A stretch of 61,795 bases of DNA, filler included, from Bacteroidales bacterium (lineage in GTDB: Bacteria; Bacteroidota; Bacteroidia; Bacteroidales; CAIWKO01): assembly GCA_035389045.1 (NCBI GenBank). It is 2 parts of 2 records of this genome, joined end to end, with 100 filler letters (N's around TTAATTAATTAA, not from the genome) between each part and the next. Parts side by side here need not be neighbours in the genome. Positions count along the whole stretch, not along the records: positions 1 to 31,078 come from DAOORA010000056.1; 1 more part is not named here. One strand, written 5' to 3'. Numbering within the stretch: the stretch's first letter is position 1; the number at the start of each line of letters is the position of its first letter. Below are positions 1 to 6,000 of the stretch, in pieces. Made by a program: the position numbers.

Positions 1-3000
1 ACTCCCGACTCCCAACTCCCGACTCCCAACTCCTGACTCCCGACTCCCGACTCCCGACTCCCGACTCCTGACTCCTGACTTCTGACTCCTGACTCCCGAC
101 TCCTGACTCCTGGCTCCTGACTCCTGACTCCTGACTCCCTACTTAAAAACCATATTCTTCTTCTCCGTGGTCTTTTCGCAATAAAAGCATTTCAGCTTTG
201 ATTCTTCTTTATCGATCACATTGAATTTGGTGGGAACATTTTCTATATTGGTAATGCAGTTGGGGTTTACGCACTTCACAAATTTCTGAATGGTTTCGGG
301 TATCTCCACTTTCTTTTTTTCTGTTACCAGGAAATTTTTAATCACGATGAGGGTTGCTGTAGGGGCAACCAAAGCAATTTTGTTTATTTCCTCGGGTTCA
401 AAAAACTTGTTGCTGACCTTGATGATCCCCTTTTTTCCATATTTGCTGCTGCTGAGGTTGGTTCCTATCACGATTTGGTTGTCGAATTTTTCGAGGTTTA
501 ATATGTGGATCACCTGAAACACGCTTTGTGTGGGGATATGATCAATTACGGTACCGTTTTCGATTGCGGATACCACTAATTCTTTTCTGGGTTTGTTGCT
601 TTGTTCCATGTTTTTATACTCCTAAGATTAATTTTAACAATGCCTGACGTACGAACAATCCGTTTTGTGCCTGCTGAAAATAATAGGCCTGGGGCAAGCT
701 GTCCACATCTTCATTGATTTCGTTGACCCGTGGCAGTGGATGGAGAATTTTCATGTTGGGTTTGCAATCAGCGAGCAGGTTTTTACTGAGGACATATGAG
801 TCTTTAACTTTTTCGTATTCAATGGGATCGGAAAAACGTTCACGCTGGATCCGTGTCATGTAAATAATATCAGCTTTGGGGATGGCCTCACTCAGGTCGG
901 TGTACTGGTAGTATTCCAGTTTTTTTTCTTTGATGTGACTCTTAACAGAACTTGGCAGTTTAAGTTCCACCGGTGAAACCAGGTGAAACCGGCAGTTGAA
1001 ATGCGTCATGGCGATGACAAGCGAATGTACGGTACGTCCGTACTTGAGATCTCCGACAAAAACGATGTCGAGGTTTTCGAGTTTCCCTTGCGTCTTACGA
1101 ATGGAATACAGGTCGAGCAGGCATTGGGTGGGATGCTGGTTGGCGCCGTCCCCGGCATTGATCACCGGTTTTGAACTTACTTCACTGGCATAGCGGGCAG
1201 AGCCTTCTCTGGGGTGCCTCATCACGATCAGGTCAGAGTAACTGTTTACCGTCAGGATAGTGTCTTTCAGCGATTCACCTTTTTTTACACTTGAACTGGA
1301 GGCGTCCGAAAATCCAATGACTTTTCCGCCCAGGTAGTTCACGGCGCTTTCGAAGCTCAGCCGCGTTCGGGTGGAAGGTTCAAAAAACAGCGTGGCTACC
1401 ACTTTACCATCAAGTATATTTTGAACAGGTTTATTTTCAAAAGTCTCCGCAGTGTCAAGCACCTGAAGGTACTCTTCTTTGCAGAGATCATCAATAGATA
1501 TTAAACTTCTGTCTTTCATTGGCTGGAATTTATTTGGTTTATTATGCAATATTATTATGATTACTAAAACTTTTTAAACTTATAGCAGGGAATTTATTAT
1601 AATTTTTTAAACAGGATGCAGCATTATTAATTTAATGTTTTTTGCAAAAAGTAATGACACAGCAAAAACCGGTTATTGGAGAGAGGCGTATTTTCCAATA
1701 GCACGGATAATGCAAAAAATGGAAAATTATCATATCAATACAGTTTCAAATTCCCGTATAAAGAATTCAGGCAAAAAAAAAGGCGACTTTCGTCGCCTTT
1801 AGAATTATTGACAGCATGAACAGCCGCTTTTTACAAGGTTGTGTTTTACCAGGAAATCACCGATTACATCATCGAGATTGGGCCGGCCGATCTCCTGCAG
1901 ATCGTAACCAACTTTTACATTGGGTTTGTTGATTTTTACAACCCTGTTCAGGTCAATAGGAGTTGCAATTACTACTGTATCACACGGTGTTGCGGCAATG
2001 GTCTTTTCGAGGTCGGCAACCTGTTGTTCGCCATAGCCCATAGCAGGAAGCAGTGTTCCAATGTTGGGGTAGATCCGGAATGTCTCTGCTAGTTTACCAA
2101 CGGCATAAGGACGGGGATCAACGAGTTCGGCAGCGCCGAATTTCATTGCGGCAACGGTGCCGGCGCCAATTTTCATTTCACCGTGGGTTAGGGTAGGGCC
2201 ATCTTCAATGACCAGTACCTTTTTCCCTTTTATCAGTTCAGGATTGTCTACGGTGAGCGGAGAAGCGCCATCGATAACGATAGCGTTCGGGTTGACCTTG
2301 GCAATACTGTTGCGGACTATCTGAATATTTTCGGGTGAGGCGCTGTCCATTTTGTTGATAACAACGGCATCGGCCATACGAAGCGAAACTTCACCGGGAT
2401 AATAGCTTAATTCATTACCGGGCCTGTGCGGATCCACTACAGTAATCGAAAGGTCGGCTTTGTAAAAAGAAAAATCGTTATTGCCGCCATCCCAGAGGAT
2501 AACATCAGCTTCTTTTTCGGCTTCCCTCAGAATAGCTTCATAATCAACACCGGCATAAATAACATTACCGCGAACCACATGAGGTTCGTATTCTTCCATC
2601 TCTTCAATGGTGCATTTGTGTTTTTTCAGGTCTTCCACAGTAGCAAAACGCTGAACTTTTTGTTCGTTCAGGTCGCCGTAAGGCATCGGGTGACGGATTG
2701 CCACAACTTTCAAACCCATGTCCATCAATATCTCAATGACACGGCGTGAAGTCTGGCTTTTACCGCAACCTGTGCGGACAGCGCAAACCGAGATAAGTGG
2801 TTTGGTGCTAACCACCTGGGTATGTTTGGGACCCATCAGCATGAAATCAGCGCCGGCTGTGTTAACAATGGCACTAACGCCCATCACTCTTGCATAAGGC
2901 ACGTCGCTGTATGCGAACACGCAGATATCCGCTTTGAGATCTTTGATCAGTTGGGGCAGTTCACTTTCTAAGTATATTGGAATGCCATCAGGATAGAGGT

Positions 3001-6000
3001 TGCCGGCTAATTCTTTAGGGTATTTTCTCCCGGCTATGTCGGGAATTTGTGCGGCGGTGAAGGCCAATACATTGTAGGCCTCATTTCCTCGGAAAAAGGT
3101 ATTGAAATTGTGAAAATCTCTACCTGCTGCGCCAATAATAATAACATTTTTTCGGTTCATATATATTTTTTTTGGTTTGTATACAATGTTTTGCAAAGAT
3201 ATAGCTTTAAAATTCACAGAATTAAAAGAAATGAAAAATTTTTTCCATAAATTGTTCATTAATTCTATAAGTCAGCAGGGGCAAAGGGGGCAACAATATT
3301 AAAAAATGTAAAAATAATTTAATAAAAAATATAAGCATGGTTTTAGAAATATTTTATAGGATAATATGTTTATATTTGCAGGTTAATACGGTCATTTATG
3401 AAAATAAAATATTGGGGTGAAGTTGCCCTTACTTTGTTGGGACTGCTTTTTTGCGGACTATCCTGCTTTTCACAAATTATTGATGATGCTATTATCACTA
3501 AAAATAAGGATACGATCTGGTGCAAAATATTATTCTTCAGAAATAACAATATTTTTTACACTACGCAAACTACTTTTAAAACCCAAACCGATTCTATTAA
3601 TCTGGCTGTGGTGAAGTCGTATATGTTCAACCAGGAACACAAGCCCAAAAAAATCCAGCGGACTGTTCTGGTAGTAACCCCTGAAGAAAGGTTGCGCCGC
3701 AAAATGGATTCTATCAGAGAAAGTAAAACCATGAACAACAGCTTTTTTGTTGAACTTTTGGGTAATGCTCCTGTTTACTCATTCAATTATGAGCGTAAGG
3801 TTTTTAATCGAAAATTCCTAACAGTGGCTGTACGCACAGGGGTTTCATACATGAAATGGTATGGTTTTGGAGACGATATATTTGATTATCATCTTAATAT
3901 GGCTACACTTTTCAAACTTTACAAACGGATTTATTTTGAGTTGGGATCCGGAGCGGCCTATATTACCGAAAGATATTTTGACGAATATTATCACCGAGAA
4001 ACAAAATTTTATATTGATTATGTTTGTATCGCAGGGCTAAGGATACAAAACTATAATGGTTTCCAGTGGCGGCTTTGTTTTACACCCAGGTTTCGCTCTT
4101 ACGATGGCAGGTATTTATTTGGCAGGCCTTGGGGAGGCATCAGCATGGGCTATAGTTTTTAAAATTTGTTGCTGAACTCGTATTTTCTAAAAAATTCATC
4201 TTCTTTTGTTTCGCTCTATGCACTGCCAATCTGTGCCTTTGGAAACGCTTTTCAGGCCGGTCAGTTGCTTGATGCCCGGGTAGTTGGCATACCTGCTATA
4301 TTGGGGTATTTGAGCATTGCAGCTCTCGGAGTAATTTACAAATTCCGGTTTACTTCAGCTTTTTCATCTGTTTCACGTATTCTTTTTCGAAATAACTGAA
4401 CCATTTATCGCCCAGGGTATATTCCGTTACTTTGACTTTGGGGTCAGCAACATTACCAGCTTTGTGGTCTTTCAGGGCATACGACCTTGCCAGTGAGGTC
4501 TGTTGAATTTTTGTGGTCGATTTGAGGATGTTACGCTGTTTAAGGATTTTCAGCAGGTACAGGGCATTGTCAGTTTCTCCCGCATCGATAAGCCAGGTAA
4601 GTCCGTAAGTAACAAAACCCGATTCAAAAGATGCTATATAGTTATGCAGCGGCTGGTGCGTGATGTTATAATTTGCTATGGCGTTTTCTGCATAATAGGA
4701 GGTAAGTTTATTATATAAATCGATAGCTTTATAGTAATCGTTATTTTTAACCAGATTATTGCACTGATTCAGCGTTTGCTGATATTGCGAAGGCTTTTCG
4801 ACATCTGTTATGCCTCTTTTTGCCGCCTCGCTGCTGATGCTGCAATCAGGATTTTTTTCCACTACCGATAAGGCTTCTTTGTAACTGTTTTCTGCTGCAA
4901 TGAAACTTTTCTCACTTTGAGCTTTTGTGGCAGCATTAATTTTTGAATCATACTCGTTTTGAGCATTCGTACATTCCAGTGAGAATATTGATTTTTTCAG
5001 CGTTTCAATTTTTTGCGACAAAACAGCATTATCATTGAGCCCATAGACTTTTTGCTCATCGATCACCTGCCGGAGAATGTTGCGTGCTTTCACCAGGTTG
5101 TTCATGTCAACGGCTTCTTTGGCATCATCAAGATCAAGAAGAAGTGTTTCAAGTTTGGATTTTTTTAATAGCTCGGGCAGGAGTTTGTCCTTTTTTACAG
5201 GGTAATCATTTTCAAGATTTTTTGCATTGTTGAAATCCTCAAAAGCCTCGCGGTAGTCCCTGGCGATCATCTTTTCTTTGCCTTTGGTCATGGCATAGTA
5301 ATATTCATCGGTGCCGATCTTTTGTTTTACGACCAGCGCTTCCTCATTATCGGGAATAAAATTTGAATATTTCTGCTGATACACAATGGCTTTAAGTATC
5401 TCATTGCCTGCTTCTTTATACTTTTTTAGAACGTAAAGATTGTCAGCAGATTTGATAAAGTTGGCATAAATACCCCGGTGGCAATCTCGCCGTATCAGAT
5501 TGAGAGTATCGTTGCAGGTATAAGCCGGAATATTTTTGCAGAAGTTTTCGGCCTTATCGGTGGCGACAAGGGCTTCAGTGTATTTTCCGCTGGTCAGCAG
5601 ACCGATGGCGCCGTTCATATCGGTCCATTCAATGGCGCGTACAAGGCCTTTTGAAGCCCTTAAGGTGTTATCATCAATATCTTTGAATGTGAAAAGTTCC
5701 TGTATAAGTTGTCTGGAATCTTCTGTTTTATTTGTCTCAAAAGCTATCTGTGCCAGGTAAAATTTCGAAGGTGCATATACAGGGTTATAAATCAGTGACT
5801 TTTCAAAAGTGGTTTTAGCCTCATAGGTCTTTTTGTCGTTATAAAGTTTTAATGCCTTATTGTAATAATGTTCATGCAATACCGATATAGTATAGTTTAT
5901 CTGGTTTTGTAGTTCGGTCTGTTTTTTTCTGATATCAAAAAGTTTGGGTTTAAGATTAACAGGGTCAAACATCTCGATGTGAAGCGCCTGCCAGAAAGCA

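What a model noticed while it worked through the whole genome (the two positions that open the first line are those of the whole stretch)
139..3160. No carbamoyl-phosphate synthetase: arcE sits with pyrBI, pointing to the arginine synthetase route for pyrimidines
The genome keeps the full pyr pathway but has no carAB, arginine deiminase or argGH; arginine synthetase arcE stands directly upstream of pyrB-pyrI, and OTC and carbamate kinase are present. The whole family looks set to draw carbamoyl phosphate for pyrimidines from arginine, so far shown only in Thermococcus.
Evidence so far: carB in 0 of 23 family genomes, all 14 controls positive; carA and ADI not found in this genome. ArcE 63% to T. 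kodakarensis, in 21 of 23 family genomes, next to pyrB in 16 of 18 loci examined. pyrB, I, C, E, F, argF and arcC annotated.
(Added by a program. Inside this text positions count along the whole contig: they may not be those of the stretch shown here. "Call 12" and the like, gene names such as g00115 and contig names such as C1 are that model's own, and its searches are not shown. The text may have been shortened before it was handed on; [...] marks where a part breaks off. The agent that wrote the report below was given it as the finding of a first reader that could run no searches.)

Follow-up and report, generated by a model that had tools for sequence, protein, structure and literature searches.

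The report
Arginine-fed pyrimidine synthesis in Bacteroidales
This uncultured Bacteroidales family keeps the whole pathway for making pyrimidine nucleotides but lacks the usual enzyme for its first ingredient, carbamoyl phosphate, and most likely gets it by breaking down arginine, a route shown experimentally in an archaeon in 2026 and, by gene content alone, apparently common among related bacteria.

Summary
arcE (1805-3160) lies directly upstream of pyrB-pyrI. Its product is 63% identical to a Thermococcus orthologue of TK2200. carB passes its cut-off in 0 of 23 family genomes, one of them closed. A true ornithine carbamoyltransferase (OTC), carbamate kinase (CK) and pyrC/D/E/F are present.

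The pattern is wider than the family. Of 401 Bacteroidales genomes, 159 have pyrB without carB, and 157 of these carry ArcE or arginine deiminase (ADI). Among arcE-less genomes, ADI occurs in 32 of 35 without carB and 17 of 80 with carB. Best reading (about 0.7): arginine to citrulline (ArcE), then to carbamoyl phosphate (OTC), then PyrB.

Corrections: a conserved terminator-like hairpin separates arcE from pyrB; the adjacency also occurs in genomes with carB; CK co-occurs as tightly as OTC, so reverse CK is not excluded; and ADI replacing the synthetase in bacteria is already in print. No enzyme activity or flux was shown here. The scan noted bacterial ArcE before on other DNA, without this synthetase-loss claim.

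The parts
1805..3160 (-). arcE, arginine synthetase orthologue, 451 aa, P-loop GCGKS, Cys-rich C-terminal tail
   Evidence: 63.3% over 436 aa to primer-matched Thermococcus orthologues; no NCBIfam family, weak cobW domain; only a weak PDB match, to cyclic 2,3-diphosphoglycerate synthetase; dN/dS 0.02-0.06 in 7 ungapped pairs
3194..3201 (-). TAnnTTTG box, the recalled Bacteroidota -7 promoter element, 41 bases upstream of the arcE ATG
   Evidence: present 38-52 bases upstream of arcE in 18 of 18 full-length family loci; consensus recalled, no shuffle control
1773..1800 (-). intrinsic-terminator-like hairpin and T run starting 5 bases after the arcE stop
   Evidence: 9-pair stem; hairpin plus T run in 21 of 21 family loci
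614..1519 (-). pyrB, aspartate carbamoyltransferase catalytic chain, 301 aa from the ATG at 1519
   Evidence: TIGR00670 375.6 bits, cut-off 236.95; FxExSTRT, RxQxER and HPLP motifs; dN/dS 0.03-0.045 in the 5 of 11 pairs where dS was not saturated
139..609 (-). pyrI, regulatory chain of aspartate carbamoyltransferase, 156 aa
   Evidence: TIGR00240 158.7 bits, cut-off 148.55; both Pfam domains

Best explanation
These bacteria are arginine auxotrophs that take up arginine or peptides (inferred). ArcE converts arginine, ADP and phosphate to citrulline, ammonia and ATP (shown for T. kodakarensis TK2200; inferred here from orthology). A true OTC, encoded elsewhere near carbamate kinase, cleaves citrulline with phosphate to ornithine and carbamoyl phosphate (inferred from family and motifs). 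Most carbamoyl phosphate probably goes to CK for a second ATP; part is drawn off by PyrB/PyrI into an intact pyrC-D-E-F route and, in relatives with hypF, into hydrogenase maturation (inferred). With this supply the ATP-costly synthetase CarAB is dispensable and is absent family-wide. arcE and pyrBI are neighbours but probably separate transcription units. Shown here: gene content, linkage, motifs, purifying selection and the order-wide co-occurrence. Not shown: any activity, direction or flux.
For: carB 0 of 23, arcE 21 of 23, no full-length ADI in 23. OTC-type hit in 22 of 23; the 20 fetched all have DxxxSMG, HCLP and Glu where E. coli anabolic OTC has Gln; this genome's OTC passes the OTC cut-offs and fails the N-acetylornithine one. 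argG in 0 of 27 other carB-less arcE-positive genomes against 11 of 30 with both genes, so ArcE and OTC cannot serve arginine synthesis there. Order sample of 401: both 107, carB only 128, arcE only 131, neither 35; pyrB in 388. Full-length ADI in 32 of the 35 'neither' genomes against 17 of 80 carB-only controls (80 of 128 tested). 157 of 159 carB-less pyrB-positive genomes have ArcE or ADI; the misses are drafts of 670 and 210 contigs. Of 25 families with neither arcE nor ADI in tested members, 23 have carB in every member. G268 lacks carB, arcE, ADI, OTC, CK and also pyrB. arcE-carA-carB-pyrB-pyrI occurs in five genomes of three families, one with an extra gene inside. arcE lies beside CK or OTC in 5 non-Bacteroidales loci of 80. 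G007 (98% complete) has no carB, carA, ADI or YgeW-type hit but has arcE, OTC, CK, pyr genes and hypF. In T. kodakarensis, arcE and arcB knockouts need pyrimidine and arcC knockouts do not (PMC13260591).
Against: CK co-occurs as tightly as OTC in carB-less genomes (75 and 76 of 80), so gene content cannot separate this route from reverse CK. Two of 45 arcE-only genomes tested, G090 (97%) and G152 (100%, 50 contigs), have pyrB and CK but no OTC. Adjacency also holds in carB-bearing genomes and a terminator intervenes. This genome also has YgfK, an SsnA-like gene, a hydantoinase, YgeW and YgeY, a second possible source, plus uracil phosphoribosyltransferase for salvage. Kin are not independent and most genomes are drafts; the order-wide carB search used E<=1e-100 and can miss a gene split into short pieces.
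Confidence: 0.7

Rival explanations
1. Carbamate kinase runs backwards and makes carbamoyl phosphate from ATP, ammonium and bicarbonate; ArcE and OTC only serve ATP and ornithine supply.
For: CK in 75 of 80 carB-less genomes and in 8 of 8 family genomes looked at. G090 and G152 have CK and pyrB without OTC. P. furiosus CK rescued E. coli synthetase mutants at 20-50 mM ammonium bicarbonate (as reported in PMC13260591). Contigs identical to arcE lie in activated-sludge RNA libraries and a relative's in a digester library; such habitats can be rich in ammonium (recalled).
Against: In T. kodakarensis an intact arcC did not rescue arcB loss. With ArcE and OTC active, CK would be pushed towards ATP formation (inference). 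Only 1 of 75 CK-positive carB-less genomes lacks both ArcE and ADI (G154, 670 contigs).
Confidence: 0.15
2. Urate or xanthine breakdown supplies the carbamoyl phosphate through the knotted carbamoyltransferase YgeW.
For: YgeW 702 bits (cut-off 453), YgeY 528 (321), YgfK 930 (835), hydantoinase 497 (393), SsnA-like 379 (below cut-off 444) in this genome. YgeW is reported to release carbamoyl phosphate (10.1101/2025.04.24.650524, passages).
Against: A YgeW-type hit is missing in 4 of 13 high-quality family genomes (G007, G009, G011, G012) that still lack carB and keep pyrB. It can be a side source in 9 of 13, not the family-wide one.
Confidence: 0.05
3. OTC is the source but its citrulline comes from outside (medium, neighbours, or a secreted peptidyl-arginine deiminase), so ArcE is not the essential step.
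For: This genome encodes a 572-aa protein with a Porphyromonas-type deiminase domain and a secretion tail. Citrulline in rich medium bypassed arcE loss in T. kodakarensis.
Against: ArcE or ADI is kept in 157 of 159 carB-less pyrB-positive genomes; the substrate of the secreted protein is unknown and its spread in the family was not tested.
Confidence: 0.05
4. There is no hole to fill: carAB was missed in draft genomes, or the cells live on pyrimidine salvage and pyrBI is little used.
For: Most genomes are drafts; upp is present; contigs of 4 RNA libraries did not cover pyrBI apart from one 46-base piece, which the tool does not accept as evidence of absence.
Against: carB is absent from 23 of 23 family genomes and from four single-contig genomes with arcE and pyrB (G019, G088, G119, G260). 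pyrB is under purifying selection and pyrC-F are kept.
Confidence: 0.05

Closest known systems
Arginine synthetase pathway ArcE-ArcB-ArcC of Thermococcus kodakarensis as carbamoyl phosphate source (PMC11032458; PMC13260591)
   Same: ArcE orthologue at 63%, OTC and CK present; synthetase, ADI and argG/argH absent; pyr pathway complete; hypF as a second consumer in 4 of 5 family genomes tested; where the synthetase occurs, argG often goes with it.
   Different: Bacterial hosts; arcE sits directly upstream of pyrB-pyrI, in some relatives with carA-carB between; OTC is of the E. coli/Pseudomonas/Vibrio type (PDB 3upd 541 bits, P. furiosus 231); other Bacteroidales fill the same slot with ADI; no genetics or biochemistry yet.
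Arginine deiminase pathway replacing carbamoyl phosphate synthetase in lactic acid bacteria (Nicoloff 2001 as cited in PMC10986539; Lactobacillus leichmannii tracer work recalled, not found)
   Same: Bacteria draw carbamoyl phosphate for pyrimidines from arginine through citrulline and OTC.
   Different: Here the first step is the ATP-forming ArcE, not the hydrolytic ADI, and the hosts are Bacteroidota.
Carbamate kinase-like synthetase proposed for Pyrococcus (PMC6245113 passages; discussed in PMC13260591)
   Same: CK present where the synthetase is absent.
   Different: Genetics in T. kodakarensis argued against it; untested in these bacteria.
Anaerobic urate (2,8-dioxopurine) pathway with YgeW (10.1101/2025.04.24.650524)
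   Same: ygfK, ssnA-like, hydantoinase, ygeW and ygeY are in this genome.
   Different: Scattered rather than clustered, and ygeW is not found in 4 of 13 high-quality family genomes.

Membership tests
ArcE arginine synthetase (TK2200 family) | Full-length high similarity to TK2200 (the paper's tree used E<1e-100 and length >380 aa) | tested here: met
   451 aa; 63.3% over 436 aa, 600 bits, to L208/L213 proteins whose ends match the TK2200 primers; a stand-in, not the TK2200 record
ArcE arginine synthetase (TK2200 family) | Only distant similarity to cyclic 2,3-diphosphoglycerate synthetase | tested here: met
   32.7 bits to PDB 9sxb; databases nonetheless name relatives cDPGS or GTPase
ArcE arginine synthetase (TK2200 family) | Co-occurrence or clustering with OTC and carbamate kinase | tested here: met
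   OTC 43 of 45 and CK 45 of 45 arcE-only genomes; adjacent to CK or OTC in 5 of 80 loci
ArcE arginine synthetase (TK2200 family) | Mutual exclusion with ADI, as described in PMC11032458 | tested here: inconclusive
   holds in the family but 22 of 45 arcE-only genomes of the order also carry full-length ADI
ArcE arginine synthetase (TK2200 family) | Arginine + ADP + Pi to citrulline + NH3 + ATP activity | not testable with these tools
   needs an assay
ArcE-OTC route as carbamoyl phosphate source | No carbamoyl phosphate synthetase | tested here: met
ArcE-OTC route as carbamoyl phosphate source | True ornithine carbamoyltransferase, not N-acetyl or N-succinyl type | tested here: met
   DxxxSMG (diagnostic per PMC4581275) in 20 of 20 fetched family OTCs; cut-offs
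ArcE-OTC route as carbamoyl phosphate source | Complete de novo pyrimidine pathway | tested here: met
   pyrB, pyrI; pyrC, D, E, F in 5 of 5 tested
ArcE-OTC route as carbamoyl phosphate source | Pyrimidine need on loss of arcE or OTC but not of CK | not testable with these tools
   needs knockouts or tracers
arcE-pyrBI operon (one transcript) | No terminator between arcE and pyrB | tested here: not met
   hairpin plus T run after the arcE stop in 21 of 21 family loci; a TAnnTTTG box in the gap in 12 of 21, not in this genome
Arginine deiminase pathway | ArcA present | tested here: not met

The most novel reading that the evidence does not exclude
A large share of Bacteroidales lineages (159 of 401 sampled genomes, in 75 of 137 families) make pyrimidines without carbamoyl phosphate synthetase and depend on arginine breakdown for it, mostly through ArcE and otherwise ADI. 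arcE has been kept at the head of the pyrBI locus as the carbamoyl phosphate supply gene, and carA-carB behaves as an optional cassette that can occupy the slot between arcE and pyrB. Arginine supply would then limit nucleotide synthesis and hydrogenase maturation in many uncultured protein-degrading anaerobes.
Probability: 0.55. Interest if true: 0.7.

Novelty: new member of a known kind. Interest (0 to 1): 0.55.

Why it matters
It would carry the 2026 Thermococcus result into bacteria and show that it is common. It closes a gap in metabolic models of these genomes, where the first pyrimidine step is missing and ArcE is mislabelled as a cDPG synthase or GTPase. It predicts that these uncultured organisms need arginine, or citrulline plus arginine for protein, which can guide media design. 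It also offers mesophilic hosts in which the old question of arginine route versus reverse carbamate kinase can be tested.

Tried and rejected
One transcript for arcE-pyrBI: rejected as the default because of the conserved terminator-like hairpin; read-through was not tested. The hairpin as a sequence-specific pyrimidine attenuator: the GCGAC/GTCGC stem is in 32 of 65 arcE-pyrB loci and 0 of 58 others, but the rest have other stems and the carriers are close kin, so an ordinary terminator explains it (five duplicate loci and those lacking the arcE 3' end were dropped). Adjacency as a mark of carB loss: rejected, 35 of 45 against 18 of 33, counted only on the 78 genomes whose two positions were both printed, which favours close relatives. 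RNA evidence: contigs in three of four RNA libraries span arcE almost exactly (1812-3161 and 1809-3121 with no differences; 1836-3163 for a relative) and none bridges into pyrB, but no DNA run was laid and the runs were found through this stretch, so nothing is concluded on levels or transcript ends. Exact TK2200 primer scan of metagenomes: 0 hits. No solved ArcE structure found. Weak carB hits in the family look like biotin carboxylase in the two opened; one weak carA hit is HisH. PMC3474736 and PMC6022934 passages held nothing on arginine-derived pyrimidines. No fold or complex prediction was run.
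Full report
The locus. Three minus-strand genes stand at the contig's start: arcE 1805-3160 (451 aa from the ATG at 3160), pyrB 614-1519 and pyrI 139-609. PyrB scores 375.6 bits on TIGR00670 (cut-off 236.95) and PyrI 158.7 on TIGR00240 (148.55); the first protein has no NCBIfam family and only a weak cobW domain. Relatives are Bacteroidales proteins named cDPG synthase or GTPase. To test the ArcE label I found metagenome proteins of 449 aa whose first codons match the published TK2200 forward primer with one mismatch and whose last codons match the reverse primer with one extra codon. The window protein is 63.3% identical to them over 436 aa. The TK2200 record itself was not retrieved. 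The only PDB match is weak, to cDPG synthetase, as PMC11032458 describes for ArcE. In 5 of 80 GTDB loci, all outside Bacteroidales, the gene lies beside CK or OTC.

The missing synthetase. carB is over cut-off in 0 of 23 family genomes; the best hit is 59.8 bits against 1027, with 14 of 14 controls positive. The family includes G019, 98% complete in one contig. carA is not found in this genome, and its N-terminal domain in 0 of 5 genomes tested. Bacteroidales CarA, CarB and ADI proteins used in tblastn against this genome give no CarB or ADI hit and only amidotransferase-domain hits for CarA. ADI is absent from 13 of 13 high-quality family genomes; two drafts have short weak hits. argG is found in 1 of 23, a fragment on a 1.8-kb contig of G011; argH is over cut-off in 0 of 5. 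pyrC, D, E and F are found in 5 of 5 tested, and arcE and pyrB have dN/dS of 0.02-0.06 where dS is measurable. hypF, a second user of carbamoyl phosphate, is in 4 of those 5, not in this genome.

The possible sources. This genome has three carbamoyltransferases: PyrB, an OTC (C46:30537-31535) and YgeW (C5:92911-94101). The OTC is a true one: it passes OTC cut-offs, fails the N-acetylornithine model, and all 20 fetched family copies have DxxxSMG and HCLP. They carry Glu where E. coli anabolic OTC has Gln; that this position marks the Pseudomonas catabolic enzyme is recalled. CK lies 1.4 kb upstream of it; PMC6022934 names closeness to CK as a mark of catabolic transcarbamylases. OTC-type hits are in 22 of 23 family genomes; YgeW-type hits are missing in 4 of 13 high-quality ones. 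In G007 only the ArcE-OTC route or reverse CK remains among the sources I searched for.

The order-wide test. In 401 genomes of the order (>=90% complete, 137 families), carB was found in 235 and arcE in 238: both 107, carB only 128, arcE only 131, neither 35. pyrB was found in 388. The 35 with neither were the test: 32 have a full-length ADI, against 17 of 80 carB-only genomes (80 of 128 tested). So 157 of 159 genomes with pyrB and no carB have ArcE (129) or ADI alone (28); the misses are G154 and G309, drafts of 670 and 210 contigs. By family, 23 of the 25 with neither arcE nor ADI in tested members have carB throughout; 3 more families were untested for ADI. G268, which lacks every source, also lacks pyrB. 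OTC was found in 76 and CK in 75 of 80 carB-less genomes (80 of 166 tested). argG was found in 0 of 27 arcE-only and 11 of 30 carB-and-arcE genomes. Against the reading: G090 and G152 have pyrB, ArcE and CK but no OTC hit; 22 of 45 arcE-only genomes also have ADI, so ArcE is not the sole candidate there; kin are not independent; and the carB threshold can miss a gene split across contigs.

What the gene order says. pyrB follows arcE in 21 of 21 family genomes with arcE and within 5 kb in 30 of 80 GTDB loci. In five genomes of three families the order is arcE-carA-carB-pyrB-pyrI, one with an extra gene inside. That places arcE among carbamoyl phosphate supply genes. But adjacency is nearly as common with carB (18 of 33) as without (35 of 45), so it may be inherited order. 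A hairpin and T run follow the arcE stop in all 21 family loci, arcE has its own TAnnTTTG box in 18 of 18, and 12 of 21 gaps hold another such box, though not in this genome. Two transcription units are the default reading.

Mechanism. Arginine to citrulline with ATP gain (ArcE), citrulline to ornithine and carbamoyl phosphate (OTC), then either ATP (CK) or carbamoyl aspartate (PyrB/PyrI). Ornithine aminotransferase is present for the ornithine. Every step is inferred from orthology, motifs and co-occurrence. I put this at 0.70, reverse CK at 0.15, and the urate route, outside citrulline, and missed genes or salvage at 0.05 each.

What is known. PMC13260591 (parts 1, 3 and 4 of 6 read, supplement not) shows the route genetically in T. 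kodakarensis and surveys Thermococcales only. PMC11032458 (passages, Discussion, supplement searched by term) describes the enzyme, names Petrimonas, and says roles in other organisms are unevaluated. PMC10986539 (passages) states that ADI can replace the synthetase for pyrimidines, citing Nicoloff 2001, which I did not read. PMC4581275, PMC6245113, PMC6022934, PMC3474736 and 10.1101/2025.04.24.650524 were seen as passages. Searches listed no paper on ArcE as a pyrimidine supply in bacteria or on synthetase loss in Bacteroidales; the library lacks most subscription papers. Earlier notes of this scan report bacterial ArcE in other genomes; none held all my search words.

Verdict. New member of a known kind; interest 0.55.

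Noticed in passing
window 1805-1825 (arcE 3' end) and related loci: ArcE ends in a Cys-rich tail (GCSCCQ). Two or more Cys in the last 14 residues occur in 47 of 126 loci, all 21 family copies among them; the Thermococcus stand-ins have one Cys there (the count includes five duplicate loci). Possibly a metal- or redox-sensitive add-on.
   Followed up: partly
G000:C46:28187-31535; L093; L096: Between carbamate kinase and OTC lie two or three small membrane genes with zinc-ribbon and Yip1 domains, behind a universal-stress-protein gene; the block is kept in G000, G007 and G019.
   Followed up: partly
G000:C42:16662-18401 (L223): Secreted protein with a Porphyromonas-type peptidyl-arginine deiminase domain and a secretion C-terminal tail.
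   Followed up: partly
G000:C5:91712-94101, C20:54793-57528, C46:20873-24850: Anaerobic urate-pathway genes (ygeY-ygeW, ssnA-like with a hydantoinase, ygfK) scattered over three contigs; xanthine dehydrogenase and ygeX were not confirmed.
   Followed up: partly
order sample, families f53, f75, f81, f83, f115, f129: Six multi-genome families lack both carB and arcE in every sampled member and all carry ADI, OTC and pyrB: the ADI version of the same supply.
   Followed up: partly
G090:C71 and G152:C24 (L217, L218): Genomes with pyrB, ArcE and carbamate kinase but no OTC hit and no carB; assembly gaps or candidates for reverse carbamate kinase.
   Followed up: partly
window 1-138: Tandem 7-base repeats (CTCCTGA / CTCCCGA) run from the pyrI stop to the contig end.
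   Followed up: no
G011:C474 (L220): Partial argG beside an acetyltransferase-like gene on a 1.8-kb contig, the only argG hit in the family; could be contamination in a 680-contig draft.
   Followed up: partly
window 31079-31178: The window joins two assembly contigs (C56 and C57) across an N gap.
   Followed up: no
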